From NCBI GenBank assembly GCA_965249555.1, contig OZ252243.1:2080001-2144000 (forward strand): a DNA stretch of 64,000 nt, written 5' to 3'. Under the pieces are notes generated by a model. It did not search any database. It was not told the DNA's origin and worked only from the letters and a program-made list of their open reading frames with translations. A program made the position numbers and the translations under genes. This DNA is from Nitrosopumilus sp. Its GTDB lineage: Archaea > Thermoproteota > Nitrososphaeria > Nitrososphaerales > Nitrosopumilaceae. Positions 39,523 through 64,000 of this stretch are shown piece by piece. Every line of letters starts with the position of its first letter. Within the stretch, counting starts at the first letter, position 1.

Positions 39523-40407
39523 ATGAATAGAGCAACTAATAACTCTGAAAAAAAACATACAAGTGTAGTGAGACACCACATAGTAGAGAAACCAATACCA
39601 AAACTAGATTTAATCAAACAGAGATTGGGCGATCCATATTATTCAGATGATAATGTTTTACTGTATAATATGGACTGTGTAGCACTTATGGATAAATTGG
39701 GATCAAACAAGGTAGATTTGACTATAACATCTCCGCCCTATAACATAGGTAAAGAATATGAAGAAATTCAGAAACCACAAGATTATTTATCCTGGTGTGA
39801 AAAATGGATGAATCTAATTTTTAATGCAACTGTTGATACTGGCACATTTTGGCTCAATCTTGGATATTTTGAATTACCAAATGGAAAGGCTGTACCTATT
39901 GCCTATTTGTTATGGGATAAAACAGACTTTTATTTTATGCAGGAAATTATTTGGTATTACAAAGCTGGTGTAGCAACAAAAAAATATTTTTCTCCAAGAA
40001 ATGAAAAATATTTGTGGTATGTAAAAAATCAATCAAGATACAAATTCAATCTAGATTCAATTAGAGATCCAGATGTAAAGTATCCCAATCAAAAGAAAAA
40101 TGGAAAACTAAAATGTAATCCATTAGGAAAAAACCCTACTAATGTTTGGGAAATACCAAAGATTACATCTGGTAAAAACAGATCATCCAAGGAACGTGTA
40201 AATCATCCAGCACAATTTCCAACCGCTGTTCTAGAGAGAATAATAAAAGCCTCCAGTAATCCGCATGATTTGGTTTTTGATCCCTTCTTGGGTTCTGGAA
40301 GTGTAGCTGTATCTGGTCTCAAAAACAATAGACAGGTGATGGGATGTGATATAAGCACAGATTATCTTGATATTGCTATTGATAGAATACAAAAATTAGA
40401 TGTTTAG
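39523..40407 (+). CDS. beta-class amino DNA methyltransferase (probably N4-cytosine)
   Basis: TSPPY motif IV precedes HPAQFP and DPFLGSGS motif I. Confidence 0.9.
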   Translation: MNRATNNSEKKHTSVVRHHIVEKPIPKLDLIKQRLGDPYYSDDNVLLYNMDCVALMDKLGSNKVDLTITSPPYNIGKEYEEIQKPQDYLSWCEKWMNLIFNATVDTGTFWLNLGYFELPNGKAVPIAYLLWDKTDFYFMQEIIWYYKAGVATKKYFSPRNEKYLWYVKNQSRYKFNLDSIRDPDVKYPNQKKNGKLKCNPLGKNPTNVWEIPKITSGKNRSSKERVNHPAQFPTAVLERIIKASSNPHDLVFDPFLGSGSVAVSGLKNNRQVMGCDISTDYLDIAIDRIQKLDV

Positions 40408-40602: not shown

Positions 40603-41952
40603 TTAGATGTATTTTGCCATCTCAGAAAACATGTTCAATTCCCTTATTCTCCATGTCTCAAAGCATGTGAGAAAGACTGAGATCATCCTCATGCCCTGAT
40701 CACTCTTCATCTGCCCGCGAACATTCCTCTGCATCACGCACTTTCGAATGGAATTCTCTGCATCATTGTTAGTTGACGGGACATCACCATCCATGACAAA
40801 CGTAAACATGCTGTTCCTTGCAGTCTTTAGCTTCTTGCCAAACTGAACCATCTCCATATCACCTTTCAAATATCGTGCAATGATACGGTCTAGCTGTTTT
40901 AGTAAATCATCCCTGTACGTTTCCCGCCGTTTTGTATGACGATTACCTACACTCCAAACCCTGGCATGACCTAGCATATCTGAGAGTTTCTCGTATAGAA
41001 TCCTTGCCTTTTTGTCCTGTGATTTTATTGCCAGATATTTGGCATCGCGCTGCAGGTGTGCAGTGCATCTCTGCTTTGTGTTATCACAAAATACTGTCCT
41101 GTACGGAGCATATCCGTCAGACACTAGGGTTCCTTTGAATTTCTTCCAGTACTTTTTTAGAACATTGGCACCTCTGCTGTACTCCAAGGCATACTGTGCA
41201 CTAGTCTTGCTTCTTGCAACCCACATCCATCCAGTATTTCCATCAATTGAAAATCCTGTCTCATCGATTCCGAGAATCTTTTCAGTCACGATTTCGCTGT
41301 GGATTGTATTGTAAAATGACTCTAACATCACACTACCGTTGCGAAGAATGGATTGTACGGTTGTATTGCTGATTTCTAATCCATATCTTTCATAGAGTGT
41401 GGTTCTGATAGCATCGTATGTCAATCTCTTTGAGAACAGTGAGACGACCTCACGTATCACTGAACCATCAAAACATCCATGTGATGGAAGGTTTCCCGTG
41501 GTTTGAAAATTATCAGAACAGTCCATGCAGATGTATTGATTCAAAACATGCTCAGTTATACCGTAGGGTGTTGGTGGAGGAATCTCAACCATTATCCTTT
41601 TGCAGGTTTTGGTTTGATGAATATTTTCACTACCGCATTTGGGACATGCATCTGATCTGTGGTGTTTGGTGCTAGTTGGTCTGAATTTCTGTGTCTTGCC
41701 AACGTGTCCTGCTATTCCACCACGTCTTGATTTGTCTGGCTGTCTGTGTTGTCTTTTTTGCTTTCTCCATTCAAGGGAATTCTTTGATGGCGGAGAGTGA
41801 GCATTCTCATAATATGACAGCTTTTTTTGCAGTTCCTTGTTTGATTCTATGAGATTCTCTATGACTAGTTTTAGTTGTTTTATCACTTCGTCTTGTTGTT
41901 TTGTCTTTTTTTGTAGCTGTATGATGATTTTCTCATGACCACAACCTGACAT
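40603..41952 (-). mobile_element. IS66-family transposase, intact ORF
   Basis: leucine zipper, HSPPS, zinc finger, IDETG, LVSDGY..Y, QRCTAHL.R, TNNDAENSIR. Confidence 0.9.
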
Positions 41953-42082: not shown

Positions 42083-43196
42083 TCAACATCTAAAACGCGA
42101 CTTGCACAGTCCTAACTGTAATTCTGTACAAATTCTCTCTTTTAGCATCCAGTAAATAACTCGCAGGATCTTTGATGATGCGGCAACTGCGGCCTTTGAT
42201 GAGCCTCTCTTTTTCTTAATGCGATTGTAAAATTTTGTAATGTCACTGTTCTTGGCATGTATTGTATGGGCATGAACACATTGGGTAAGAACCCATCGTA
42301 GTGTCATGCTTCCCCTTTTGGTTATACGGCCATGGTGTAATCTGCAGAGTTTCTGACTGATGGCACGACTCGTGCATATGCGCATAACTTGTGAGAGTCA
42401 TTGAATCTGCTAATATCTGCAATTTCTGCTGCAATAACTAGTGATTAGTCACCAATTCCGGGTATTGATTTTATTATCATGGCATCAGGACTGGTCTTTA
42501 CGGCAGCATACACTCTTGAATTAATATCTTCAATTTGCAGATTAAGATGGCCTATCTGTCGTACAAATCCATCTATGCGATAGTCACCTAAGGGAGGTGA
42601 GTCTTCTGTTGTATGTTACAGTGAACGTGACTCCTGGTATCTTGATTCCCTCCTGTAACAAAATTCCATGAATAGAATTTTTGAGAGAGGTCCTCCACTG
42701 AACGAGTTTTTTTCTGTATCTTACCAGCTGGCGATGTTTTACTATCTTTTTGTTTGGAATATGGCATGTATCCCCAGCGCAAAAGATCTGCCCGTATTTT
42801 GGAATCAATCTTGCCTGTTTTTTTTGATGCGGCTATTGCCTTTGTAAGATACGGGTTTGAGAGTGTCACGTTTTGTATCCTAATTCATCTGTAAGAAATC
42901 TATACGTGTTATACTGATGATGACTCCATGACAATGTTTGCATGAATTGGTATGTCTGTAAAATGTTTCCTGATTGACTCATGAGTGTTCTCAACTTTTA
43001 TGTTTTGTAATATCTTTCCGTCATCATCCATTGTTGCTAGAAGAAATTCCTTGTGCAAGTCAATGCCAACATACATGCCCTTGTCTTTTTTTGCCCTAAT
43101 CTGTTTCTTTGGACTTTTCTTGGAATATGATGAATTACGAGCCCTGGACCTGGGTTCATTTTTCATGCTATCTGAATTCCTTCTTTTTGTATTCAC
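42083..43196 (-). mobile_element. second IS110-family transposase, multiply frameshifted
   Basis: YVGIDLHK, VMESS, LSNP...KTGKIDS, GRITKRGS..LRWVL. Confidence 0.82.
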
Positions 43197-47256: not shown

Positions 47257-50200
47257 CTAGTCATTCCAGCTAAGATCAGAGTCATCATATATCATACAGT
47301 CACACAGCATCTCCTGGGCCAGCATCTCCTGTATGGATAGTGATTCCAGCAATGCGGGATCTGATACTCTGTCCAGCCTTAATGGCATGTCATATGAGAA
47401 TGATTCATCCAGAGTTCCCTGAATTGCCTTACTATCAAAGATTAGGGTTGCCCTGTCCTGCTCATCAATTACCAGATTTGCAAAGTTTGAATGAATTCTA
47501 GTCATTACGCTTGTTGGCAGATCATCTCTTTGTTGTATATCTGGTCTTGTAATCTGCAACCAGGTGCCATAGTCATTTTGTGACCATATGTATCCATATT
47601 GGTCCTCCCAGACCTGGTAACGTCTGTCCTGCTGGGTTAGTGATATGGTCTCAAACGGATTCTGGTTGCCATGCTTTTGTTTTAGTTCATGAGTTGCTGC
47701 TGCAAGTAATGCTTCTCCTGTAAACTCTACACCTTCGTTGATATATGTGGTAGTAGAATAACGTTGTTTGTCAACTGCATTAATTGCCAATACTTCATGG
47801 GATAATGGTGCCATTATTACAAATGATATGGTAACATCAAAGCACCTCTCTGCAGTATCTGATGATATGCATTTGACTTTGTCAATGGATGCACCAGTCA
47901 TCTTCTCATTTACTAGTTCCTCTTTTTGCTCATGGACTATATCTGCAATGTCATAGCCTGCAGGACTGGTATAGTTGCTATTTACATTTACTATAATGTG
48001 GGACTCTGCATTAGTTTTCAGGCCAATTTCTGGAACTCCAAGGGATAGAGATACCGACTTTAGACCATTTGTTGCATAGCCTTTGATGTGGACTGTATTG
48101 TTATCACCAATAATGCTGCTAGTCAGATTAAAGTCAGTGTGCCAGTTGTTTGTAATGGTTAATGGCATGCCATTAAAGACAAAGCCGTCATCAACTAGCT
48201 GTACTGCTTGATTATTCCAATGTTTGCCAAAGGTTGGCTTTGTTTTCCATTCATTAGAATCTCCACCTTTTTTCTTTGGTGTGTCAGTTCCAGTAATTAC
48301 ACCATCTCCACTATCGGAGTCATCAGGATTTTGAGCAGGTACTGTGTATGTTCTAGTTACAGATTCAGCTGCATTGTCTGATGCATCTACAGAATCATAA
48401 GTGATATCGTAATCGCCTTGTGTGTTAACATCAACATTTCCAGTTGTAGTAACTGTAGAGCCATCATCAGCTGAGACTCCTTTAAGCAAGTCAGGTTGTA
48501 ATGAGTCAGCTTGTAGTGTAACGGTAAGAGGATCAACTGTGATTACTGGTGGTGTTGTATCAGGTGGAGTTGGTGCTGCGGTAGCTGTAACTGTGACTGT
48601 TCTAGTTACTGTAACTGCATGGTTTCCGGCCGCATCAACTACATCAAAGGTAACATCATAGGTTCCAATCGTACTGGTATCAACTGTATCTCCAACAACT
48701 ACATCATCTGTGATAACTCCATCAGTGTTATCAGTTGCAGTAAAGGTGAATGGTGTGTATTCTTCTCCAAGTTCAACGGAGAATGATTCCTCATTGACTG
48801 TGATAGATGGTGCTGTTATATCAAATGCTTCAGGTACAGGTTCACATATTTCATTATCTACAGCAACACCCTTTATACAAACTCGATTAGCATCGTTTAG
48901 ATCGATGATATGAGTAATACGGATAGTATGTTGATTTGATCCGTCAGATGGAGTGAAAGTATCAAAATCACTACTACCGTCACTAATAATAAGAACATAG
49001 TTATTGGTGATACTAGTTTCTATATTACTCCAGGATACTGTAACGGAATTATCAGCATTTCTTACAGCATCTATTGTTGGTGGTGCTGCAACATCAGATG
49101 CTACTGTTACGGTTTCAGTGATGATAGCAAATAACCCATTGTTGTCAGTTACGGTATAAGTTACAGTATATTCTCCAGAAGTGTTGACATTTACCAAGTC
49201 ATCACCAACTACAATACTAGATGCAATTCCTGAGATATCAGATTCATTGGCAATTACACCTGGGGCGTATGTTCCGCCAAATGGTACTGTAGTTGTATAG
49301 TCAACTGTGTTACCATCAACATCAAAGGTTGGCGGTGTGGTATCAGATACGGTAATTGTAATTGATTGTTGGTCTGGCGTGTTACCTGCTGTATCAGCTG
49401 GCGCATCATACAATACGGTGTATACTCCTATAACACTGGAGTTAGGCGCATCATCTGTAATTGTTACTGTTCCAGAGTAGGCTGGGTCATTATCTTCTAC
49501 AGTAGCGTCAGGTATAGTGTAGGTGTCAGTTGTAGTTAACTCTATTGTTTCACTGGATCCTAATACCGTGATTACCGGTTTTTCGGTATCAAGTGTAATG
49601 ACTATAGCTGGTGATGCAGCAGATGTGTTGACTCCATCAGATGCTCTTGCAGTGAATGAGTTGGCACCCTCATCTAGTTCAACTCCTGCAAATGAGAAAT
49701 CACCTGATCCATCGGCAGTTACTGTACCAGCTGATGTCATTCCATTGAATAGTGTTATAGTTGCTCCGGCCTCAGTTGAACCGCCATCAATTGTGATTGG
49801 TGATGCGCCAACAGTTGCAGATGGTGTGGTAATTGCAGGAACTGGTGGTGGTGTGGTATCAACAGGTGGTACTTCTTCAGACGTTATATTATTATTATCT
49901 ACAGCACCACCAACGGGATTACCCTCAGAAAAACCAAATACACCAATTTCCTCAGCACTATTTGCTTTGTTAAAAGATGGATCATCTTTGGTAATAGTAT
50001 GTGGACTAGTGACAAGTTCAGCAATTGAATCAGGATCCTCACCTTCGTTAATTGCATAAATATTATAATCGGTACCAGGTATATTGCCCCAAGTTACTGT
50101 GATGGAGTCAGTAGTAGGTCTTGTAACTGTTACAAATGGTTCAGTTGGTGTAGTTGCTGCAAGTGTAGTTACAGACACGACACTAGAATCGGCACTGTCT

Positions 50201-53123
50201 CCAGCTGCTGCCACTGCCCTTATGGAATAGGTGTAAGTTGTTTCAGGTTCCAAGGTATCATCAGTGTATGATATCTCAGTCCCAGCGACGGGTATCTCAG
50301 TTGATCCTGTGCCACCTGTTCTGCTCAGTATGTAACCTGTTGCACTGGCAATTTTATTCCATGAGAGCGTTACACTGTTATGAGTAGGGGTTTCTGCCTC
50401 AAGTGTCGGGATGCCAGGTAGAGTCACTACTAATGGCCTCAGATATACATCGCCATTCAATAAAATGAGAATATCACTACTAAAACCATTGCCAAGGGAT
50501 AGTGGATCAGATGATACAGTGTTACCTATATCGCCAGTAGCAACAACTATGTCATCGCTGGCATCACCTGCCTCAACTAGAAATGTGCCTGCCCTTAACG
50601 GGACAAAGGATACAGTTACATCTCCAGCAGCATCTCCAGTATAACTAAATGTGCCTGCCCTGATTGCAAGTAGAGATGCAGGTGTGCTTGCAACTGTCGC
50701 ATCGTCAAATGAGAGGATTACATTGCCATCAAATTCATGGTTGACTGGTATCTGTTTACTTTTCACTATTTCATCTGTTACATCCGTATCTGTTACATCA
50801 ACAGTGTCAATCAACGTACCTGCCGTAATCGTAAATGTGCCTGCCTTTAAGGCTACAAACTCTACAAGTAAATCGTTTGTACCTATCGGAATAGTAACCT
50901 CAAAAGAGCCTGCCTCTATTGCCGGCTTAACCTCGGTCGTTACAGTCTGCCTTACAACGTCCTCACCGCCAAATGACAGGACGGCATTGCCGACATAGGA
51001 ATCCACATGATCAAATACGATGGTTACTCTGTCATCTATATTGTCGTTCGTAACAGCTATAGTTTTGGTCACTCCGTCCAACACAACACTGTATTCGCCT
51101 AGATGGCGGGGGTCAAATTCTACAAATACCTGGTCAAGAGAAAGAACTACGTAAACACTAAAAGAGTCTGCCTCTATTGCCGTCTGGTCAGATGTGTAAG
51201 TTGTTGTTGTGGCAACAAGAGTAGTTGCAGTGACCTCGTTAGAATCTACGCTTGTCCCGGCAGTATTTGTTGCCGTAATGGTATACTTGTAATTTGTTTC
51301 AGGTTCCAAGTTCTCATCATCGTAGAATGTATCAGTAATGTCCGGTATCTCTGATGTCTCTGTGCCAACAATTCTGGTCAAAGTGTAACTGTTGGCATTA
51401 TCCACTGCACCCCAGAAAAGCGTTATACGTGTGTCAGTGAATGATGCTAGTGTAAGTGCGGGAGTTTCAAGTGGAGCTGCAGTTACTTTGTATATTCTGG
51501 TTTTATCAACAGCTGGGTTTGTACCATCAGTTGAGGAATAAGTGATAGTGTAATCGCCTACTGTACCAACATCAACAGTTCCAGATATAGTAATTTCAGA
51601 GCCATCATCAGTTCTGACTCCAGTAGTAAGTTCTGGTGCAGGTGAGTTTAGTTCAAGAGTGATCTCTTCTGGAGTTACTGTGATTACTGGGGGAGTAGTA
51701 TCAGGTGCTGTTCCAGTTGTAGTTGTAGTAACCGTATTAGAACGAACACTTTCCCCAAAAGTATTTGTTGCTGTAACGAAATACTTGTACGCTGTACCAG
51801 AAAGCAGACCAGTATCACCGGTACTGAGTCCGCTGGTGCCTGACAACACTATTACATCATTACCGCCATCAACAATTCTGGTTAGAGTGTAACTGTCGGC
51901 ATTACTCACTGCAGTCCATGAAAGTAATATAATTGCATCAAGAGTTCTGTCTACAGAAAGTACGGGTGCGGCTGGTGGTGTAGTTAATGCTGTTCCAGTT
52001 GAAGTTGCAGACTCAACATTAGAAGTGGTAATTACCCCATCACCATCAAATGCTATGACATGATATTTGTAGGTTGTTCCAGGAAACACAGTATCCGTGT
52101 ATGTTGTCCCTGCAATATTTCCTCCTTGCTGACGGTTATCTCTATACACCTTATAGTATGTGGCATCAGTCACTGTATTCCATGAAAGTGATATAGTTGT
52201 ATCAGTAACTGCTCCTACAGAAATTACAAATGGATCTTCTACTGGTGGAGTTGTATCAGGTGCTGTGGTATCTGTAACTGTAACTGTTCTAGTTACTGTT
52301 TCTGCAAGGTTTCCAGCCGCATCAGCTACATCAAAGGTAACAGTGTAAGTATTAGCTACATTGATATCAACTGTATCTCCGTCAACAATTACACCACCTG
52401 TGATATCTCCATCAGTATCATCAGTTGCAAAATAGGTGAATGGCGTGTATGTTTCTCCAAGCTCGATGGAGAATGATTCTTCATTAACTGTGATTACTGG
52501 TTTTTCTGTATCTGGTGCACTAGTCGTTACAATCAAAGTATTAGAGTTAACTCTCGAGAGAGGATTATCGTAAAGTGCTCCGACATAATATTCGTAGGTC
52601 GTTCCAGGAGTCAGACCAGTATTAATGACGCTGGTGCGGGGGTCGCTGTAGGTGAGGTGGCGATTTGCTTGTAGTTCATCATTTCTATACACACTATAGT
52701 CAAAGGCATTATCTCGCGTCTTCCATAAAATCTCAATGCTTGTACTAGTGACGTCTCCCACACTAATTGTAGTTGGATTACGCGTTACAGTCTGCCTTGC
52801 AACTTCCTCACCGCCATATGACAAGATGACAGTATTAACAGAAGAACTCGCAATATTAAAGGAAATAGTTACTTCGTCATTAAGGTCATCTGATACAACA
52901 GTTCTAGTTTTGGTCTGTCCGCCCGCCGTAGCAGTGTATACGCCTTCCTTGAGGGGGTCAAAGTTTACCACTGTTTGGGTTGGAAGTGATCTAGTCTCAA
53001 AAGAGTCTCCATCGATTGCCGTCTGGCCAGGTGCGTAAGTTTGAGCCTCTGCACTTGCAAGAAGTGATATGGCAAACAGGACAACCCCCCCCCCACTAAC
53101 GCATTAAATAACATTTTATTCAT
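47257..53123 (-). CDS. large surface protein (FN3 and DUF5011/Ig-like repeats), frameshifted at a G10 tract in the signal peptide
   Basis: open frame 47257-53085; ATG at 53123 is out of frame; G8 or G11 gives MNKMLFNALVGG(G)VVLFAISLLASAEA-QTY. Confidence 0.8.
53085..53094 (-). repeat. G10 homopolymer, candidate phase-variation tract
   Basis: ten consecutive C on the plus strand in AT-rich DNA, at the frameshift. Confidence 0.75.
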
Positions 53124-55675: not shown

Positions 55676-56112
55676 TGTACTATTCTCACAAAGTCTGCCA
55701 TGAATCTTCCAAGGTCCTCTGTATTGCAGTAGTCATTTGATCCGCCCGTATAGTCCTCAAAGTTTTCAGCAGTTCTGATCAGGAAACATTTGTCCCATCT
55801 GAGATCACCAATGCTGAAATAATAGATGTTTCCATTTCTTATCTCAAAGAATCCGTGTTGATCAAAGTGGTTTGGTTTTGCTATCTCTATCTTTGTTATC
55901 TCGAAATTATCATGCAATAATTTCGTGAACTGTTTTTTGAAGACTTTGCAGAATGTCAAGTATTGTGTGGTTATTGAACTTGATGACTTGTATTCTGCAT
56001 TTAGGAGAGCAAACCAATTCTTTGATGCTTCCTTGAAATTATCTTCCTTGATTGCACCTAGCTTGTCTTGCAACTCTCTTATCTGTTGCTCTATCTCTAT
56101 TTGTTGGACCAT
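55672..56112 (-). CDS. hypothetical MGE protein
   Basis: GGAGG upstream of ATG (MVQQ); YFSIGDLRW...LIRTA....DYTGGSN phage/plasmid-type motif. Confidence 0.6.
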   Translation of the reverse strand: MVQQIEIEQQIRELQDKLGAIKEDNFKEASKNWFALLNAEYKSSSSITTQYLTFCKVFKKQFTKLLHDNFEITKIEIAKPNHFDQHGFFEIRNGNIYYFSIGDLRWDKCFLIRTAENFEDYTGGSNDYCNTEDLGRFMADFVRIVQ

Positions 56113-56340
56113 TCGGTTCAACCTCCTATTTCTGAAATAACGTTTCCAGTGGTACGATTCCTGTATGTGAAGTTACTTTCTGGGCATCTCTTTGAGATAT
56201 CATATTTGCAACTTCAAGGAATAATTTTCATTGAAACCGTCTGTGATTTCAATTATACAATCTCACACCCATCCGCTGAGTCGGTTCTGAAATTATATCT
56301 CAGAATAAAACGGGTTTGGATGATATGGCTCAGTCAAAAA
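56101..56340. repeat. 240-bp leader repeat, copy 1 (copy 2 at 57729-57968)
   Basis: near-identical sequence including structured motif, RBS and first four codons. Confidence 0.9.
56262..56336 (-). ncRNA. pseudoknot leader motif, copy A
   Basis: CTGAG/CTCAG, ACCCGT/ATGGGT (one mismatch) and a 9-bp hairpin. Confidence 0.6.
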
Positions 56341-56354
56341 AAGATGCTGTATGT

Positions 56355-56819
56355 CTACAGCTTGTCTTCGATTTTCTTTAAGATACCTGTCATATCTTTG
56401 AGAGAATTTGATGTCTCTTTCTGAGATGATGCTATCTCTTTGAGAGAATTTGATGTCTCTTTCTGAGATGATGCTGTCTCTTTCTGAGATGATGCTATCT
56501 CTTTGAGAATTCCAGATATCTCTATATGGTTTTCTTTGAGAATTTTTGTATGGCTCTCAAGGATTTCATTTTGCTCGTTGAATCGCCTGTACAGCTTGTG
56601 TGCCACATCTCTTGTTGCAAGCATCATATAGACACCTACGACGCCGGCAATAATAAAGGCAGCTCCCAAGGCAATCAGCATTTCATTATATGGGGGCGTG
56701 ATTCCAAGTGCCAGAATACCTGCTCCCAGACACATTATAACAAACAACCAGTGGTTGCCTTTTGTGGTATCTTGTATTTGGGATGAAATCCTTCTTATCT
56801 GGTTTTTGGTATCTACCAC
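56355..56819 (-). CDS. two-TM protein with heptad-repeat coiled-coil tail
   Basis: two TM helices; 21-bp SQKETAS/LKEIASS repeats. Confidence 0.65.
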   Translation of the reverse strand: MVDTKNQIRRISSQIQDTTKGNHWLFVIMCLGAGILALGITPPYNEMLIALGAAFIIAGVVGVYMMLATRDVAHKLYRRFNEQNEILESHTKILKENHIEISGILKEIASSQKETASSQKETSNSLKEIASSQKETSNSLKDMTGILKKIEDKL

Positions 56820-56893
56820 TTGTAATTTTTATCTCCGTTGTTATCCCACATTATCCCAGTCATGTGTCTCATCTGTATGCTCCTCTTAAAAAA

Positions 56894-57181
56894 CTAAGAG
56901 GCATGTACAAGCTCTGATTCTGCAGATAGTTTCTGCAACATTTTTACTGCAATGACATGCGAGCATTCACCTCGAAACTTGAATCCCATACATTCGCATA
57001 TCTCATCATTTATGATGTATGATCTTCCAGGAGTGGATGCGTTTACCTGGTAGGTATCATCATCAATCTGAATGATGCATTTTGTGTCTATGAGATTCTG
57101 TGCCTTTTTCTCCGTGAATTCAGACATTACCCACATTGGATGAAGACGTATCAAGGTGGATTTCTGTCGTATCACTCTCAT
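56894..57181 (-). CDS. SWIM zinc-finger protein
   Basis: CECMGFKFRGECSHVIAV. Confidence 0.72.
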   Translation of the reverse strand: MRVIRQKSTLIRLHPMWVMSEFTEKKAQNLIDTKCIIQIDDDTYQVNASTPGRSYIINDEICECMGFKFRGECSHVIAVKMLQKLSAESELVHAS

Positions 57182-57531
57182 AGAGTTGTATAATCTCCAT
57201 CACACACTCGGGTTTCTAATGTTGCTCCTGCAAACCAATTACTTTTAGTTAGTTCTTGCAGCTGCTGTCCTACCTTGTTTTCAGATACTCCAGATGCTGA
57301 TTTGGCAGACCATGTGATTCCAAGTTCTCTTTGTGTGTGTCCGCATTTCTCCGGTCCGTTGAATCTGATTTCAGTTGGAGCAATTGTCGGATAGTTCGTA
57401 CCCATTCCGTCTGCAAGAACTACTCCAAGATGTCTTAGTGGTGTTACCATCTTTTTGAAATCCGTTGCAACTTTTGAGAATTTTCCCGCATCAAACTCTG
57501 GTGATACGTAATAGTAGTGAGTGTAACCCAT
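57178..57531 (-). CDS. hypothetical MGE protein (MGYTHY start), possibly truncated
   Basis: MGYTHYY...EIRFNG pattern seen in phage/plasmid hypotheticals. Confidence 0.5.
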   Translation of the reverse strand: MGYTHYYYVSPEFDAGKFSKVATDFKKMVTPLRHLGVVLADGMGTNYPTIAPTEIRFNGPEKCGHTQRELGITWSAKSASGVSENKVGQQLQELTKSNWFAGATLETRVCDGDYTTL

Positions 57532-57740
57532 TAGTTGCACTCTACACAGTTACATGACACTGCATGCTGTTCTGGTAATGAGGAATAGTATGCTTCATTT
57601 ACAATCTTTTCCTCATGACACTGTTGCAGGATTTCAAGTTGTTCTGAACTCCACCCCATGCTAACTATACACTTTGTATGAGAGAGGGGATTTTGTGAAT
57701 TGATTTCTGTGCTCTCACTTGCACTGTTTTGTTGGACCAT
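57531..57740 (-). CDS. small hypothetical protein
   Basis: same RBS and MVQQ start as 55672-56112; ends HAVSCNCVEC. Confidence 0.5.
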   Translation of the reverse strand: MVQQNSASESTEINSQNPLSHTKCIVSMGWSSEQLEILQQCHEEKIVNEAYYSSLPEQHAVSCNCVECN

Positions 57741-57889
57741 TCGGTTCAACCTCCTATTTCTGAAATAACGTTTCCAGTGGTACGATTCCTGTATGTGAAA
57801 TTACTTTTTGAGCATCTCTTTGAGATGTCATATTTGCAACTTCAAGGAATAATTTTCATTGAAACCGTCTGTGATTTCAATTATGTCAT

Positions 57890-57964
57890 CTCACACCCGT
57901 CCACTGAGTCGGTTCTGAAACTATGTTTCAAAATAAAACGGGTTTGGATGGTATGGCTCAGTCA
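57890..57964 (-). ncRNA. pseudoknot leader motif, copy B
   Basis: ACCCGT/ACGGGT; hairpin closing pair C-G versus T-A in copy A. Confidence 0.6.
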
Positions 57965-57985
57965 AAAAATGTGGTGTTTGAAAAC

Positions 57986-58381
57986 TCAGTCTTTGCTTTG
58001 TAGAATGTCTTTTATCTCGTTCTGAGATTTTGCCATCTCGTTCTGAGATTTTGCCATCTCGTTCTGAGATTTTACTATCTCGTTCAGAGATTCTGTAATG
58101 GATTGCAATGCCTTTATGATACTTGTGCCAATATTCATGTTTTCTTTGCCGACATCATATATTGCCTCTTTGATACTTGTGCCAATATCCATCGTAGTCC
58201 AAGACATTAACATACCTACGAACCCAACTATAATAAAGGCTATGCCTTCACTTAGCAGTCGTTTGTCTGTCAGTTGGCTTGTGATGGTTAGGAATGACCC
58301 AACTACTACCATTGCCACAAATATCATGTTTTGACGTCGTGTAAGACTGGTTCTTATTCTGTCTGTGGTTATTTTTTCCAT
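57986..58381 (-). CDS. two-TM protein with heptad-repeat tail
   Basis: two TM helices; SQNEMAK 21-bp repeats; same architecture as 56355-56819. Confidence 0.65.
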   Translation of the reverse strand: MEKITTDRIRTSLTRRQNMIFVAMVVVGSFLTITSQLTDKRLLSEGIAFIIVGFVGMLMSWTTMDIGTSIKEAIYDVGKENMNIGTSIIKALQSITESLNEIVKSQNEMAKSQNEMAKSQNEIKDILQSKD

Positions 58382-60613: not shown

Positions 60614-61651
60614 TTATATTTTCTGACTCGCTGTTGGGACAGGAAGCGAGCTTGCAAAGGATTGTACTATATGCTGGTTCTTTTCTTTGTGGTCTTTTTT
60701 GGTTGGTAGATTACCATATTTGTAGTCCAGTCTCCTCAGTTCTGTACCGTCCCATTTCTTCTCAAGAGAGTCTGCCTTTCTTTTGTACACCTTGGACTGT
60801 CTTTTGGATGTATGATTCCATGAATCAATCATCTCTGCAGATAGGACTGGTGTTGTGTGGATGATGAATGCTTTTGTCTCTGCGTTGAACTGTCTGTCTT
60901 TGGCATCATCTGTTGGCTCTCGATTGTATTTTTTGAGAATCTCTAGTTTGTCAGAGTCTGTCAATGGTCTGTCTCCTTCACTGATTGCAGCAACAAAAAT
61001 CAGACTGCATGATAGTATGGGTCTGACCTGAACAGTCTTTACCTCATCACCGCTTGGAATTAATAGTAATTCCTCACTGTGTGTTTTTCCTGTTGTCTGT
61101 ATGGATGATATTCCAGATAACTTTGGAGTGATTCCGGTACTCTGGTATCTCCTTGGTCGGTGTGATAGAATTCTGTCAGTCCTTTCAGCTGCTCTGATGT
61201 CTTTTTTTGCAAATTCTATCTCCAGGAATTGCTCATCCCATGATGGTACGATACCAGTAGAGAATCTCTTTCTTTGTACAAGGTATCCTCCACAGACACA
61301 ACGAGTTATGTCTGCTGGTTGTTTCCAGGAATGGCATCTCTTGCAACAAGTTGCCTTTTCAGTTTTTATGGAATCCATGTCAACTGGCTGTACTTCCAAT
61401 GGATATGCTCCCTTGAATTTCTTCATTGGAATCTCAAATAAACAGAGTTTGCCGTCTTGAAGAACTGCTACTACACCCTCTTTGGCTCTGAATTGAATCA
61501 AAGCCTTGTTGGTACGGTCATATTTGACATGACCTCTGTACCCTTGGGATTCTAGTTTCTGCTCAAGGTAGTTCTTTACCAAAAGCAATTTTTGACTACT
61601 TGGTACATTTTTGATACTTGTACTGGTATTGTTTGAATTTTTGAAAACCAT
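60614..61651 (-). CDS. basic hypothetical protein with zinc ribbon
   Basis: 345-aa ORF; CKRC...C.CGG; GGAGA upstream. Confidence 0.6.
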   Translation of the reverse strand: MVFKNSNNTSTSIKNVPSSQKLLLVKNYLEQKLESQGYRGHVKYDRTNKALIQFRAKEGVVAVLQDGKLCLFEIPMKKFKGAYPLEVQPVDMDSIKTEKATCCKRCHSWKQPADITRCVCGGYLVQRKRFSTGIVPSWDEQFLEIEFAKKDIRAAERTDRILSHRPRRYQSTGITPKLSGISSIQTTGKTHSEELLLIPSGDEVKTVQVRPILSCSLIFVAAISEGDRPLTDSDKLEILKKYNREPTDDAKDRQFNAETKAFIIHTTPVLSAEMIDSWNHTSKRQSKVYKRKADSLEKKWDGTELRRLDYKYGNLPTKKDHKEKNQHIVQSFASSLPVPTASQKI

Positions 61652-61966
61652 TTGGCTTCATCTCCTTTTGCAAAAAACATACCGAAGTTGTAACATATGA
61701 TGTCTGGTTTCTAGTAGATGTTGTCATCCAGCTTAGCCTAGGCTAAGATTAAAAAAATACATGGATGTGATTGAATATCAATCTACTGTCTGTTATCTGA
61801 CAGACTGTGTTGCACTGAAAAAAGATTTCACGTGTCTGTAGTCTTTGTATGCTTTTGCTAGTTTGGTTGTATTTCTGTCAGATTTTATCCTGCCAGAACA
61901 GACGTCATTTCTGAAAATATCGTTTTTCATCTGGACGATTCTCATATGAGAATTTTTTTTACCAGT

Positions 61967-62041
61967 CGCACACCCATCCGCTGAGTCGGTTCTGAAACTG
62001 TGTTTCAAAATAAAATGGGTTTGGACTGTATGGCTCAGTCA
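61967..62041 (-). ncRNA. pseudoknot leader motif, copy C
   Basis: ACCCAT/ATGGGT, compensatory to copy B. Confidence 0.6.
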
Positions 62042-62082
62042 AGAAAAAAATTGGATTTCTGTAAATTTCTTTACAGTTGGTT

Positions 62083-62796
62083 TTAGCACCCAGATTGTTT
62101 TGCCCATGGTTCATCACCGAATTCACTGATATTACAGAATCGATGAATGATCTCCGCATGGCTGTTTGATACGAGTAATGAGTTGATAGATGCAGTTGGA
62201 GTGTGTGCTGGATATCCCATACACCACACCTTGGCAATCATCCTACCATGTGAGCCGCCTTTCTGCCCGTCGTCTGCATCATAGAGTACCGCGGTTCCAA
62301 CAGGGCATTGCTTTATTGTAAATGCAGTCGCATTAGAATAGCCTTGCTCGTTACGCTCTGGAGTGTTCACCAGGGATAGTCGTATTCGAATACCATCAAT
62401 GTCTATGGTATCACCGTCGACAATCTTTGTGACTTTTCCACTCTTAACCGTTCCATATGGTATGACATCAGGGATTTGCTGTTTTGCAATATTTGTTGAT
62501 GCAATATCATTTGGCGTATCTGCCGGTTCTGATATCTGGGTGTCATTGTGAACTTTTTCAAGTTCGTTTGTGGTGTTTGCAAAGACTGCACTTATGCCCT
62601 CTGTTTTTTCCTCAACTGATGATATCATTCCGGGAATGTCTGCTGCAAGCAGTGCTGGAACAACATAGGCGTATGTGAGGGATGCAATGCTGACAATAAA
62701 TACAGTCATGCAAACAGCCACTGTTATTTTTTTGATAAATTGTTTTTTTGACATGGACTCGTATGTGAGTTTCGGAAACTTATTCCTCATCAGCAT
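62083..62796 (-). CDS. membrane-anchored thermonuclease (SNase family)
   Basis: TM helix; VTKIVDGDTI...IRLSLVNTPE...HGRMIAKV...IN..LV. Confidence 0.85.
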   Translation of the reverse strand: MLMRNKFPKLTYESMSKKQFIKKITVAVCMTVFIVSIASLTYAYVVPALLAADIPGMISSVEEKTEGISAVFANTTNELEKVHNDTQISEPADTPNDIASTNIAKQQIPDVIPYGTVKSGKVTKIVDGDTIDIDGIRIRLSLVNTPERNEQGYSNATAFTIKQCPVGTAVLYDADDGQKGGSHGRMIAKVWCMGYPAHTPTASINSLLVSNSHAEIIHRFCNISEFGDEPWAKQSGC

Positions 62797-62838
62797 GTCT
62801 TCTAGTTGAGTTATATTGATGAAATGATATGAGAATAG

Positions 62839-62906
62839 TGAGGGTCAGAACTTTTGCTGTCATCATTACTGATGTTCAGATCAACGCCGCTCTCATCATC
62901 CCCTCA
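62839..62906 (-). ncRNA. box C/D-like sRNA 1
   Basis: TGAGGGG-ATGATGA-GAGCGGCGTTGAT-CTGA-ACATCAGTA-ATGATGA-CAGCAAAAGTT-CTGA-CCCTCA. Confidence 0.75.
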
Positions 62907-63072
62907 TTATCAATCTAGAATGTTTTGAAATGTGTAAATTGGAGTTTTGTAGACTGCACTTGTACCCTCTGTCTGCTCCTCAACTGATGATATCATTCCG
63001 GGAATGTCTGCTGCAAGCAGTGCCGTAACACTTCTGGTTATGAGTTATATTGATGAAATGATATGAGAATAG

Positions 63073-63140
63073 TGAGGGTCAGAATATGGGGCTGTCATCA
63101 TTACTGATGTTCAGATCAACGCCGTTCTCATATCCCCTCA
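63073..63140 (-). ncRNA. box C/D-like sRNA 2 (box C has a 1-nt deletion)
   Basis: TGAGGGG-ATATGA-GAACGGCGTTGAT-CTGA-ACATCAGTA-ATGATGA-CAGCCCCATATT-CTGA-CCCTCA. Confidence 0.65.
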
Positions 63141-63306
63141 TTATCAATCTAGAATGTTTTGAAATGTGTAAATTGGAGTTTTGTAGACTGCACTTGTACC
63201 CTCTGTCTGCTCCTCAACTGATGATATCATTCCGGGAATGTCTGCTGCAAGCAGTGCCGTAACACTTCTGGTTATGAGTTATATTGATGGAATGATATGA
63301 GAATAG

Positions 63307-63374
63307 TGAGGGTCAGAATATTGGCTGTCATCATTACTGATGTTCAGATCAACGCCGTTCTCATCATCCCCTCA
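63307..63374 (-). ncRNA. box C/D-like sRNA 3
   Basis: TGAGGGG-ATGATGA-GAACGGCGTTGAT-CTGA-ACATCAGTA-ATGATGA-CAGCCAATATT-CTGA-CCCTCA. Confidence 0.75.
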
Positions 63375-63540
63375 TTATCAATCTAGAATGTTTTGAAATG
63401 TGTAAATTGGAGTTTTGTAGACTGCACTTGTACCCTCTGTCTGCTCCTCAACTGATGATATCATTCCGGGAATGTCTGCTGCAAGCAGTGCCGTAACACT
63501 TCTGGTTATGAGTTATATTGATGGAATGATATGAGAATAG

Positions 63541-63608
63541 TGAGGGTCAGAACGGTTTTCTGTCATCATATTGATGTTCAGCTCAACGCCGCTCTCATCA
63601 TCCCCTCA
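63541..63608 (-). ncRNA. box C/D-like sRNA 4
   Basis: TGAGGGG-ATGATGA-GAGCGGCGTTGAG-CTGA-ACATCAAT-ATGATGA-CAGAAAACCGTT-CTGA-CCCTCA. Confidence 0.75.
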
Positions 63609-64000
63609 TTATCAATCTAGAATGTTTTGAAATGTGTAAATTGGAGTTTTGTAAAATTTTAGGATATTTGGAAAATTGTATTGGGTTTTGTAAAGTTTTA
63701 GGATTTTGGAAAATTGTAAAGTTTGGAGTTTTGCAGAGTTGTAAATGGTTTTGGAAAAAAGTCAGTTTCTTGTAATGATTTTGTGGTTTTTGATTTTGTT
63801 GTCTGTTTTTTTGGTTTTAGTTTTGGGTTGTAAAGCGTTGCAATATTCTGCAACGCCAAAACATCCTGAAAATTCAATCAAAATATTTTCTTGTACCGTT
63901 TTTCTGCAGATACTAGAATTCAGGCTCTCCGTCATCTGCAATTCCCGGTTTTGTATCAGAGATGGTATCTTTTTTTGGATCTGGATTGATTGTTCCCATA

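What the first reader, a model, noticed from the sequence alone, without database searches (positions are those of the whole stretch)
62880..62945. Constant D' guide is antisense to the archaeal 16S helix-31 (P-site) region
Seen: guide core CGGCGTTGA next to box D', and ACTCCAATT about 30 nt upstream of every sRNA (62937-62945, minus). Knowledge: the archaeal 16S primer Arch958R is YCCGGCGTTGAMTCCAATT, so both pieces are complementary to one contiguous 16S segment. The N+5 rule would point to about A969 (E. coli numbering), next to the modified 966/967 P-site loop. Inference: the element may modify or bind host small subunits; a fixed rRNA arm plus a variable arm could tether ribosomes to chosen RNAs. 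The match is only 8-9 nt and the second piece lies in a low-complexity promoter-like tract, so chance is possible.
Basis: partly seen in the sequence, partly recalled or inferred. Interest (0 to 1): 0.72.

Follow-up and report, generated by a model that had tools for sequence, protein, structure and literature searches.

The report
Tandem archaeal C/D guide-RNA array
The flagged stretch is one arm of four tandem copies of an ordinary-looking archaeal methylation-guide RNA whose match to this organism's own 16S rRNA is short and not unique, but the array sits in front of a conserved self-cleaving hammerhead RNA that would cut the transcript one base before a nuclease gene's start codon, which is unusual.

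Summary
The sequence facts hold. Four 66-nt box C/D sRNAs lie on the minus strand in a 234-bp tandem array. Their D' guide is nearly constant, their D guide is hypervariable, and ACTCCAATT lies 31 nt upstream of each.

- This genome's 16S reads ...CAACGCCAGA..., so the D' guide pairs by 8 Watson-Crick pairs plus one G-U. 15-19% of shuffled guides do as well.
- The D' guide pairs equally well with 23S (helix 68 region).
- ACTCCAATT lies outside the sRNA, on the wrong side for co-linear pairing, and is absent upstream of the homologues read in G054 and G150.

Relatives rescue part of the idea. The sRNA belongs to an accessory family (13 of 151 genus genomes), often in arrays. Some members carry 9-10 nt Watson-Crick guides to the same 16S strand.

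I read it as an ordinary fibrillarin guide lineage, eroded here, not a ribosome tether.

Unexpected: directly downstream lies a type I hammerhead. It is unique in the genome and shows covariation. Its predicted cleavage site is 1-2 nt before a start codon in all 17 copies examined (8 genomes). That suggests a ribozyme-made leaderless mRNA at the head of a plasmid-like island.

The parts
62807..63653 (.). Tandem array, period 234 bp, 3.6 copies. Each unit holds a promoter-like tract, a C/D sRNA and a copied fragment of the downstream gene's 5' coding region.
   Evidence: Tandem Repeats Finder; four-unit alignment A1.
63542..63607 (-). C/D sRNA copy A. D' guide GAGCGGCGTTGAG; D guide CAGAAAACCGTT.
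   Evidence: Box parse; model R1 80.6 bits; Rfam RF00095 21.8 bits, below the gathering score of 45.
63308..63373 (-). C/D sRNA copy B. D' guide GAACGGCGTTGAT; D guide CAGCCAATATT.
   Evidence: RF00095 29 bits, E = 0.0017.
63074..63139 (-). C/D sRNA copy C. D' guide GAACGGCGTTGAT; D guide CAGCCCCATATT. Box C carries a 1-nt deletion (GATATGA), so the copy may be defective.
   Evidence: RF00095 18.2 bits.
62840..62905 (-). C/D sRNA copy D, nearest the gene. This is the copy in the finding's coordinates.
   Evidence: RF00095 26.9 bits; the fold keeps the terminal stem.
62880..62892 (-). D' guide of copy D (GAGCGGCGTTGAT), followed by box D' CTGA at 62876-62879. It pairs with own 16S 904-912 (8 WC + 1 G-U; N+5 = A908) or own 23S 2002-2011 (8 WC + 2 G-U; N+5 = A2006).
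62849..62859 (-). D guide of copy D (CAGCAAAAGTT). This is the hypervariable arm. Its best rRNA match is 23S 1129 (9 WC + 1 G-U in a low-complexity tract).
62937..62945 (-). ACTCCAATT motif, also at 63171-63179, 63405-63413 and 63639-63647. It lies 31 nt upstream of each sRNA, next to a TATA-like TTTACA, and is not part of the sRNA.
   Evidence: and the sequence. Reading it as promoter DNA is inference.
62750..62799 (-). Type I hammerhead ribozyme motif. Stem I GACATG/CATGTC; core CTGATGA; stem II GGAA/TTCC; GAAA; stem III ACTC/GAGT. Predicted cleavage is after C62756, one base before the ATG at 62754.
   Evidence: Only descriptor hit in the 2.23-Mb genome, 0 in 3 shuffles. MFE equals the hammerhead fold. 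98.6% of cells paired and 5 of 14 pairs with double changes. No Rfam hammerhead family listed at E <= 10.
62083..62754 (-). Gene for a 223-aa secreted or membrane-anchored thermonuclease (SNase)-like protein. Its first codons form the 3' strand of hammerhead stem I.
   Evidence: PDB thermonuclease E = 2e-6; phrog_452 endonuclease 4e-10; Pfam SNase 17.3 bits, below the cut-off of 21. Those protein calls used 62757 as the start, one codon too long. Orthologues are in G036, G150 (x2) and G066.
62980..63023 (-). Copy of part of the nuclease gene's 5' coding region inside the repeat unit. It is also at 63214-63257 and 63448-63491; the genuine copy is at 62612-62655. This shows the array arose by duplication of an sRNA-plus-gene-start segment with an internal deletion.
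   Evidence: Exact 44-nt match, 4 of 4; alignment A1.
63640..63745 (-). A/C-rich low-complexity repeats upstream of the array (periods 18, 25 and 39). They contain further CTCCAA-like words.
   Evidence: sequence.
60614..61651 (-). 345-aa ORF of unknown family. It is the conserved neighbour of this sRNA family.
   Evidence: No Pfam or PHROG hit. 86% identical paralogue about 400 nt downstream of the fifth sRNA 'X'. Found in 10 of 151 genus genomes, 6 of them sRNA-positive.

Best explanation
The flagged bases are the D' guide of four tandem copies of a canonical archaeal box C/D sRNA. Such RNAs guide fibrillarin/Nop5/L7Ae to 2'-O-methylate RNA.

The sRNA belongs to an accessory family with a shared GAGGGC/GCCCTC terminal stem. 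The family is scattered through this genus and family, often in arrays, and is linked to a plasmid-like island.

Within the family, one guide per sRNA falls into recurrent types. Several types are clearly rRNA-directed. The CGGCGTTGA type descends from, or toggles with, a guide that pairs with 16S 904-914 (the 3' strand next to the 966 loop of helix 31). In this genome it has eroded to 8 WC + 1 G-U and pairs just as well with 23S 2002-2011 (helix 68 region). If it still acts, it acts as an ordinary weak methylation or folding guide on nascent rRNA (N+5 = 16S A908 or 23S A2006), not as a tether.

The other arm is an orphan that turns over very fast. ACTCCAATT is promoter-region DNA and its 16S match is coincidence.

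The array is probably transcribed into the downstream operon. The sRNPs would protect their 66-nt pieces, and a hammerhead ribozyme would cut the transcript one base before the AUG of a secreted nuclease gene, releasing a leaderless mRNA.

Shown: sequence anatomy, family distribution, pairing statistics, hammerhead covariation and position.
Inferred: expression, methylation, co-transcription, self-cleavage, leaderless translation.
For: - C/D anatomy: 4 of 4 copies have boxes D', C' and D, spacers of 13 and 11-12 nt and a 5-bp terminal stem; box C is intact in 3 of 4, and copy C has a 1-nt deletion in box C. Sub-threshold hits to RF00095.
- Fibrillarin and Nop5 genes are present.
- Family: model R1 hits 13 of 151 genus genomes and 7 of 151 family-sample genomes in 5 of 27 genera, G000 included in both. 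Arrays occur in G150 (two), G066, G137 and G226.
- rRNA-directed guides in the family (shuffles reaching the observed run): GTTCCATTCATT gives 11 WC on 23S 2071-2081 (18 of 5000). GTGAAACGACGT gives 10 WC on 16S h44 (32 of 5000). The G226 D guide gives 10 WC and the G150 insertion variant 10 WC + G-U on 16S 904-914 (48 and 66 of 5000). G066 gives 9 WC on 16S 907-915.
- The rRNA sites are identical in all 9 relatives checked.
- Variable arm: 7 of 8 core columns vary against 6 of 138 outside. No rRNA, tRNA or genome target above chance.
- Hammerhead: unique in the genome, covariation, conserved after arrays in G054 (x2) and G150 (x2), and 3 copies after the array in G066; a C/D sRNA 3' end lies within 90 nt upstream in G165 and in 3 G189 copies.
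- A start codon lies 1-2 nt after the cleavage site in 16 of 16 copies parsed by script, plus 1 read by eye.
- Island: gene order is conserved in G150, G036 and G066. ArdC-like protein, thermonuclease, actin/ParM-like protein and a TBP paralogue are present.
Against: - In this genome the D' guide's rRNA pairing is not better than chance and is below the 9-WC criterion. The guide could therefore be functionless.
- As a set, D' guides beat the reverse-complement control (14 of 29 score >= 9, against 2) but barely beat the reversed-rRNA control (10 of 29).
- The three 16S-directed variants predict three different N+5 nucleotides (A908, C909, C911). That is odd for a conserved methylation site.
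- The commonest relatives' variant (GACCGGCGTTGAT, in G054 and 4 G150 copies) favours 23S (-19.0) over 16S (-15.3 kcal/mol).
- No covariation test is possible, because the rRNA sites do not vary among the relatives.
- No hammerhead family of Rfam matched even at E <= 10. The hammerhead's folding energy z-score is only -1.29.
Confidence: 0.55

Rival explanations
1. The constant D' arm is a 23S rRNA guide, not a 16S guide. It pairs with 23S 2002-2012, immediately 5' of helix 69 (my assignment, from comparison with recalled bacterial numbering), and would methylate A2006. On this reading the 16S h31 match is a look-alike site.
For: G000 guides pair with 23S by 8 WC + 2 G-U over 10 contiguous positions, at -15.5 to -15.7 kcal/mol, against -15.3 for 16S. 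The most widespread variant, GACCGGCGTTGAT (G054 plus 4 G150 copies), gives 9 WC + 2 G-U at -19.0, against -15.3. The C at guide position 10, which pairs only with the 23S site, is kept in 10 of the 11 copies that carry the uninterrupted GGCGTTGA core without the T insertion.
Against: It needs two G-U pairs, at positions 1 and 3, next to the target nucleotide. The guides of G007, G066 and G226 favour 16S (-15.3, -16.7 and -17.8, against -13.1, -12.8 and -14.2). An 8-WC run is within chance (973 of 5000 shuffles for this variant).
Confidence: 0.2
2. Neither arm guides anything. The sRNA-like units are selfish or structural repeats: k-turn/L7Ae-binding modules that multiply by tandem duplication, as do the MITE-like sRNA look-alikes of Pyrobaculum. 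At most they stabilise, process or regulate the leader of the nuclease operon.
For: The array arose by crude duplication that dragged a gene fragment along. One copy has a damaged box C. Relatives hold decayed copies with degenerate boxes. rRNA pairing in this genome is at chance level. D guides show no enrichment over controls (5 of 31, against 8 and 2). The distribution is patchy. Pyrobaculum has MITE-like elements classified as C/D sRNAs with orphan guides (PMC6009581, passage read).
Against: Box and stem sequences are kept across genera while the guides change. Several guide types recur between genomes and have 10-11 WC rRNA matches. The protein machinery is present.
Confidence: 0.15
3. 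The hypervariable arm is the business end. An island-borne array diversifies A/C-rich guides against G/U-rich targets outside the genome (rival plasmids, viruses) or against host mRNAs, while the constant arm serves as scaffold or rRNA anchor.
For: Divergence is extreme and localised between otherwise 96-100% identical units. The same behaviour is seen between the two G150 arrays and, in the D' position, in 3 G226 copies. 22 of 26 variable-core bases are A or C (my count). The array sits in a plasmid-like island beside an anti-restriction-like gene and a nuclease gene.
Against: No target was found. Genome-wide matches are at chance level and the exact hits are the sRNA genes themselves. The variable cores are only 6-7 nt. 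A low-complexity A/C composition also fits slippage in non-functional spacer. No foreign sequences were searched.
Confidence: 0.06
4. One reading: a fixed 16S h31 arm plus the upstream ACTCCAATT piece bind small subunits, and the variable arm tethers them to chosen RNAs.
For: Both 9-mers are present, and ACTCCAATT is exactly antisense to own 16S 897-905. One arm is fixed and one is variable.
Against: ACTCCAATT lies outside the sRNA and 5' of the guide, so the two cannot pair co-linearly. It occurs at about chance frequency (2 independent sites, against 1.15 expected). It is missing upstream of the homologues read in G054 and G150. The guide pairs by only 8 WC with own 16S. No partner was found for the variable arm.
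Confidence: 0.03

Closest known systems
Archaeal box C/D sRNAs (fibrillarin methylation guides; for example the Pyrococcus family RF00095 and the 110 Pyrobaculum families of PMC6009581)
   Same: Size about 66 nt. Boxes C/D'/C'/D, terminal stem, two spacers of about 12 nt, N+5 geometry. One guide has rRNA complementarity and the other is orphan; 28% of Pyrobaculum guides are orphan (passage read).
   Different: - Found in a low-GC (34%) genome with very few canonical sRNAs: a strict pattern finds only this family.
- Arranged in tandem arrays with near-identical scaffolds.
- Accessory and patchy rather than core (13 of 151 genomes).
- The guide match here is below the usual 9-WC threshold.
- Below the Rfam gathering score.
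MITE-like sRNA look-alike elements of Pyrobaculum (PMC6009581, passage read)
   Same: Multicopy C/D-like units with orphan or non-conserved guides in unstable genome regions.
   Different: Here the copies are head-to-tail arrays tied to one gene cluster, not dispersed insertions. The boxes are mostly intact.
Polycistronic snoRNA gene clusters of plants and trypanosomatids (recalled, no call)
   Same: Several C/D guide RNAs in tandem, processed from one precursor.
   Different: Those are eukaryotic housekeeping clusters. In archaea most sRNAs are said to be transcribed singly, with few polycistronic cases (PMC6009581, passage read). No hammerhead is involved there.
Hammerhead ribozymes, in particular HHphage of haloarchaeal viruses HF1/HF2 (PMC3088659, passages read)
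   Same: A hammerhead just upstream of the first ORF of a polycistronic unit in an archaeal mobile genome. There the mapped transcript 5' end lay within 3 nt of the cleavage site.
   Different: HHphage lies 13 nt upstream of the start codon and has core insertions. Here the core is canonical and the start codon is inside stem I, 1-2 nt after the cut, so the product would be leaderless. It follows a guide-RNA array. That paper reported at least three archaeal representatives (passage read).
Virus-encoded C/D RNA (v-snoRNA1 of Epstein-Barr virus; recalled, no call)
   Same: A mobile genome that carries its own C/D guide RNA.
   Different: It is eukaryotic and a single gene. Whether the archaeal island here is truly mobile was not shown.

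Membership tests
Archaeal box C/D sRNA | Box C (RUGAUGA) near the 5' end and box D (CUGA) near the 3' end, joined by a terminal stem (k-turn) | tested here: met
   3 of 4 copies are exact; copy C has a 1-nt deletion in box C. GAGGG/CCCTC stem in 4 of 4.
Archaeal box C/D sRNA | Internal D' (CUGA) and C' (UGAUGA) boxes with a short loop, and two spacers of about 12 nt | tested here: met
   4 of 4 copies: D' spacer 13 nt, loop 9-10 nt, D spacer 11-12 nt.
Archaeal box C/D sRNA | Match to a curated family model at its gathering score | tested here: not met
   RF00095 scores 18.2-29 bits against a gathering score of 45; nothing in the window at gathering. The curated models come from distant thermophiles.
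Archaeal box C/D sRNA | Partner proteins encoded in the genome | tested here: met
   Fibrillarin 298 bits and Nop5 231.6 bits, adjacent genes. L7Ae was not searched.
Archaeal box C/D sRNA | Guide with at least 9 continuous WC pairs to rRNA or tRNA around N+5 (criterion of PMC6009581) | tested here: not met
   The D' guide gives 8 WC to 16S 905-912; the longest continuous WC run to 23S is 7 (8 WC in all, interrupted by a G-U). D guides give <= 8 WC, except copy D (9 WC + 1 G-U in a low-complexity 23S tract). The criterion is met by homologous guides in G150, G226, G066 and G137.
Archaeal box C/D sRNA | Stable RNA of about 60-70 nt and a target-site 2'-O-methyl group | not testable with these tools
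   No RNA run is listed for this sequence.
Hammerhead ribozyme, type I | Conserved core CUGANGA ... GAAA ... UH at a three-way junction | tested here: met
   Single descriptor hit in G000, 0 in 3 shuffled genomes. The core is invariant in 5 aligned sequences.
Hammerhead ribozyme, type I | Three helices supported by covariation | tested here: met
   98.6% of 69 cells paired; 5 of 14 pairs changed on both sides; 0 of 500 shuffles reach the covariation score (only 5 sequences, kin). Further divergent copies in G189, G177 and G165 keep the fold (read by eye).
Hammerhead ribozyme, type I | Match to Rfam hammerhead models | tested here: not met
   No hammerhead family is listed for 62000-64000 even at E <= 10.
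Hammerhead ribozyme, type I | Self-cleavage; tertiary contact between stems I and II | not testable with these tools
   No assay was possible. Stem I is open and only 6 bp long, so fast cleavage in vivo is not assured.
Integrated plasmid-like or conjugative element | Partition, anti-restriction and nuclease genes; patchy distribution; duplication | tested here: met
   ArdC-like phrog_7245 2e-11; thermonuclease; actin/ParM-like protein and TBP paralogue; weak ParB_N. The cluster is conserved in G150 (x2) and G036. The 345-aa marker is in 10 of 151 genomes.
Integrated plasmid-like or conjugative element | Integrase, attachment sites, transfer ATPases | not tested
   No integrase or att site was searched for. 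Only IS-type transposases were seen.

The most novel reading that the evidence does not exclude
In this archaeal family, plasmid-like islands carry arrays of their own C/D guide RNAs, each with one conserved rRNA-directed arm and one hypervariable A/C-rich arm. The arrays are transcribed as the leader of the island's operon. A dedicated hammerhead ribozyme, whose stem I contains the start codon, cuts the guide-RNA precursor away and in the same stroke creates a leaderless mRNA with a 5'-hydroxyl end. That would be a ribozyme used as a general device for making leaderless messages (five unrelated ORF families in four genera). It would also be a mobile element that edits its host's ribosome modification pattern.
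Probability: 0.3. Interest if true: 0.85.

Novelty: new variant of a known kind. Interest (0 to 1): 0.62.

Why it matters
The rRNA-arm idea as posed would matter little even if true, because a C/D sRNA guiding methylation near the 16S P-site loop is ordinary biology. Three other points make the locus worth a look.

- Guide RNAs appear here as accessory, island-linked, tandemly amplified cargo in an archaeon whose genome has a low GC content and few canonical C/D sRNAs. That raises the question whether mobile elements tune host ribosome modification.
- One guide arm turns over far faster than its surroundings. No explanation here accounts for that.
- The hammerhead's start-codon-in-stem-I design recurs in 17 of 17 copies in front of unrelated ORFs. 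It offers a directly testable natural role for a self-cleaving ribozyme: making leaderless mRNAs and separating them from upstream non-coding RNAs. My searches of the held library found no description of this.

Tried and rejected
- Rfam at gathering scores: 0 matches in the window.
- tRNA scan: 0 in the window.
- RNA evidence: no RNA holder listed for 61600-63900. The five holders are contigs from 3 studies. Laying four of them gave only short fragments over the repeats and no joints, which is uninformative on expression or copy number.
- Covariation between guide and target: impossible, because the 16S and 23S sites are identical in all 9 relatives checked. G242 gave no rRNA match (76% complete).
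- Targets of the variable D guides. rRNA and 56 tRNAs gave nothing with at least 9 continuous WC except copy D on a low-complexity 23S tract. A whole-genome search with 0-1 mismatch was at or near the uniform-composition expectation for most guides (two A/T-rich D guides gave 62 against 36 and 115 against 36), and the exact hits were mostly the sRNA genes themselves.
- Another G000 sRNA with the same 16S guide: none. The five 9-mer hits next to CTGA have no box C. A guide-first scan gave 30 antisense against 22 sense hits, so no enrichment.
- A pairing score that counts G-U as half proved too permissive, since 80-519 of 1000 shuffles reached the observed values. I replaced it with the Watson-Crick-run statistic.
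- Weak R2 hits in G058, G083, G241 and G165:C89 (E 0.003-0.01) lack the core on inspection. I do not count them as hammerheads.
- Literature. Two searches failed on syntax. The following searches found nothing relevant: 'hammerhead ribozyme'+Thaumarchaeota (2 irrelevant papers); 'box sRNA'+Nitrosopumilus (0); hammerhead+Nitrosopumilus (0); 'box sRNAs'+tandem+archaea+orphan (2 not relevant); hammerhead ribozymes+archaeal+leaderless (0); 'C D box sRNA'+polycistronic+archaea (0, where the slash may defeat the search); hammerhead+'leaderless mRNA'+self-cleaving (1 review, listing only).
- PMC7994747 has no mention of Thaumarchaeota, h31 or H68.
- Supplements of these papers were not seen. Their target tables could list a 16S site equivalent to A908.
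Full report
**What is there.**
The window is G000:C1:2080001-2144000 of a complete, single-contig, 2.23-Mb archaeal genome with 34% G+C. From the 16S sequence I take it to be a Nitrosopumilaceae-like ammonia oxidiser. That is my own reading; no tool named the organism.

At 62807-63653 there is a 234-bp tandem repeat with 3.6 copies and 96% matches. On the minus strand each unit holds a 66-nt RNA gene with the full archaeal box C/D layout:
- terminal stem GAGGG/CCCTC
- box C ATGATGA
- a 13-nt D' spacer
- box D' CTGA
- a 9-10-nt loop
- box C' TGATGA
- an 11-12-nt D spacer
- box D CTGA

Copy C has lost one base of box C. Rfam's Pyrococcus C/D model matches all four copies below threshold (18-29 bits, gathering score 45). 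Fibrillarin and Nop5 genes are present.

The motif CGGCGTTGA is indeed the core of the D' spacer in 4 of 4 copies. ACTCCAATT indeed lies 31 nt upstream of each sRNA.

**Does the D' guide match this organism's 16S?**
The genome's only 16S reads AATTGGAGTCAACGCCAGAAATC from position 897. The pairing then breaks. The N+5 nucleotide is A908, about 969 in E. coli numbering if the primer's name sets the register (recalled).

The same guides pair with 23S 2002-2011 by 8 WC + 2 G-U. Duplex energies are -15.3 kcal/mol for 16S and -15.5 to -15.7 for 23S.

An 8-nt WC run covering N+5 somewhere in 16S+23S is reached by 732-934 of 5000 shuffled guides. The 16S score is reached by 153-305 of 1000 shuffles. 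The Pyrobaculum study required nine continuous WC pairs (PMC6009581, passage read). Taken alone, the match in this genome is not evidence of targeting.

**The second piece.**
ACTCCAATT is exactly antisense to 16S 897-905. Four things argue against any role:
- It lies outside the sRNA, in an A/C-rich low-complexity tract next to a TATA-like TTTACA.
- It lies 5' of the guide, whereas a contiguous antisense would need it 3' of the guide.
- It has two independent occurrences in the window against 1.15 expected.
- It is absent upstream of the homologous sRNAs read in G054 and G150.

I treat it as coincidence.

**Relatives change the picture.**
A covariance model of the sRNA (R1) finds the family in 13 of 151 genomes of the genus. 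It also finds it in 7 of 151 sampled genomes of the family, in 5 of 27 genera; both counts include G000. Members share the terminal stem GAGGGC/GCCCTC. They often form arrays: two arrays of at least 7 units in G150, at least 13 units in G066, 10 in G226, and several in G137.

G000 has a fifth member, 'X', 14 kb beyond the window.

In most of these sRNAs (the D' guide in most, the D guide in three G226 copies) one guide falls into types that recur between genomes, while the other guide varies. Some recurrent guides have long rRNA matches (shuffles reaching the observed run):
- GTTCCATTCATT, present in two genera: 11 WC on 23S 2071-2081 (18 of 5000).
- GTGAAACGACGT: 10 WC on 16S 1345-1354 in helix 44 (32 of 5000).

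- GACCTGGCGTTGAT in G150: 10 WC + G-U (66 of 5000).
- ATCTGGCGTTGT, a D guide in three G226 copies: 10 WC (48 of 5000).
- GGTATCTGGCGTT in G066: 9 WC.

So helix-31-side pairing is real for part of the family.

Four points count against a simple story:
- The commonest variant (GACCGGCGTTGAT) prefers the 23S site (-19.0 against -15.3 kcal/mol).
- The three 16S-directed guides point to three different nucleotides (A908, C909, C911).
- As a set, the D' guides only weakly exceed one of two controls (14 of 29, against 2 and 10).
- The rRNA sites are identical in all 9 relatives examined, so no compensatory test exists.

My reading is that the G000 guide is an eroded or toggled member of an rRNA-guide lineage. 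A one-base indel switches the best fit between two look-alike sites, one in 16S and one in 23S.

**The variable arm.**
Among the four units, 7 of 8 columns of the D-guide core differ. Only 6 of 138 other shared columns differ, and 0 of 89 in the distal part of units A-C.

The cores are AAAACCG, CCAATA, CCCCATA and CAAAAG. They are 22 of 26 A or C. The same A/C-only turnover appears in the D' position of three G226 copies and between the duplicated G150 arrays.

No rRNA, tRNA or genomic complement stands out. I cannot say whether this is slippage in a functionless spacer or diversification. It remains unexplained.

**Context.**
The array units also contain a 44-nt exact copy of part of the downstream gene's 5' coding region. 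The array therefore grew by duplication of an 'sRNA plus gene start' segment that then lost about 150 nt.

The downstream gene (62754-62083) encodes a signal-anchored thermonuclease-like protein. Behind it come a 345-aa ORF of unknown family, an ArdC-like anti-restriction protein (phrog_7245, 2e-11) and families of small paralogous ORFs. These ORFs are repeated many times just beyond the window.

The order nuclease / 345-aa ORF / ArdC-like is conserved at 65-77% amino-acid identity in both G150 loci; G036 keeps the nuclease (69%) and several of the small ORFs, and G066 the nuclease in part (55%). The 345-aa ORF occurs in 10 of 151 genus genomes, 6 of which are among the 13 sRNA-positive ones. 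It lies about 400 nt downstream of a family sRNA in G000 (at sRNA X), G007 and G077; behind the window's array the nuclease gene lies between.

Next to sRNA X lie an actin/ParM-like gene and a TBP paralogue. Transposases and a DNA methylase are nearby.

This looks like an integrated plasmid-like island, though I did not look for an integrase or attachment sites.

**The hammerhead.**
Between sRNA D and the nuclease ATG, at 62799-62750 on the minus strand, lies a textbook type I hammerhead:
- stem I GACATG/CATGTC
- core CTGATGA
- stem II GGAA/TTCC
- GAAA
- stem III ACTC/GAGT
- cleavage after the C at 62756

A descriptor search finds it as the only hit in the whole genome and none in three shuffled genomes. 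The minimum-energy fold is exactly this junction, although the energy z-score is only -1.29. Five aligned homologues pair in 98.6% of cells, with double changes in 5 of 14 pairs. Rfam's hammerhead families did not report it.

Model R2 finds credible copies in 5 of 151 genus genomes and, in the family sample, in 3 further genomes of 2 other genera. I discount four weak hits after inspection.

In G000, G054 (two loci), G150 (two loci), G066, G165 and three G189 copies, the hammerhead directly follows C/D sRNAs.

In 16 of 16 copies parsed by script, and one more read by eye, a start codon begins 1 nt after the predicted cut (2 nt in three G189 copies). It is ATG in all but one, which has GTG. The start codon lies inside the 3' strand of stem I. 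The base before it varies (C, U, A, G) and the 5' strand co-varies.

The ORFs behind the hammerheads belong to at least five unrelated families: the nuclease, and ORFs of 34, 56, 62 and 189-198 aa. Three of the ORFs are short or truncated (G054 x2, G177_b).

The simplest reading is that self-cleavage frees a leaderless mRNA from a precursor that begins with guide RNAs.

The nearest precedent I could read is HHphage of haloviruses HF1/HF2. It lies 13 nt upstream of a start codon, and a mapped 5' end lies within 3 nt of the cleavage site (PMC3088659, passages).

**Verdict.**
The specific 16S claim is weak in this genome but has a kernel of truth at the family level. The tether model is not supported.

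The locus is a new variant of known things: C/D guide RNAs and a hammerhead ribozyme. The arrangement is an island-borne guide-RNA array with one hypervariable arm, joined to its operon by a ribozyme that would make a leaderless message. I did not find this described in the searches listed.

No expression or modification data were available. All functional steps are inference.

Noticed in passing
window 62750-62799 (-); also L009, L010, L028, L057, L074, L113-L122: Canonical type I hammerhead whose stem I holds the start codon of the next ORF. The cut is 1-2 nt before ATG/GTG in 17 of 17 copies across 8 genomes. It usually lies right after a C/D sRNA array.
   Followed up: yes
G000:C1:2157671-2157740 (-) = L039:13671-13740: Fifth family sRNA, 'X' (D' guide GTCTCTGGCAAT, D guide CAGCCATCTAT). 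It lies upstream of an 86% identical paralogue of the 345-aa ORF and next to an actin/ParM-like gene and a TBP paralogue. Its D' guide type recurs in G009, G075, G077 and G066, but no rRNA or tRNA target with at least 9 WC was found.
   Followed up: partly
window 56101-58192 and G000:C1:2144272-2154986: A module of about 1.7-2.5 kb encoding small ORFs (120, 145 and 154 aa) is repeated at least five times at 87-97% identity just beyond the window. The function is unknown.
   Followed up: partly
window 5059-10773 (-) and 47257-52971 (-): Two ORFs of exactly 1904 aa. The second has Ig-like surface and fibronectin type III domains. I did not check whether they are duplicates.
   Followed up: no
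window 30192-31208, 38388-38885, 40603-41952, 42083-42385; 39523-40407: IS4-, IS240/rve-, IS66- and IS110-type transposase genes, and an N6/N4 DNA methylase. This marks a variable, mobile-DNA-rich chromosome region.
   Followed up: no
G000:C1 about 1628045-1628110 (+): A likely housekeeping C/D sRNA outside the family. Its 13-nt guide GCGGAAAAGCCGT has at least a 9-nt match antisense to 23S at about 2609. Box D looks degenerate.
   Followed up: no
L110 (G066:C2:118950-119800, -): Three 297-bp tandem units, each a hammerhead followed by an identical 34-aa ORF. They sit between a C/D array of at least 13 units and a membrane-protein gene.
   Followed up: partly
That is one mismatch to the primer.
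   Followed up: yes
window 63640-63745: A/C-rich degenerate repeats (periods 18, 25 and 39) upstream of the array. They carry repeated TTTACAAAAC-CCAA-like words and may be reiterated promoter elements.
   Followed up: no
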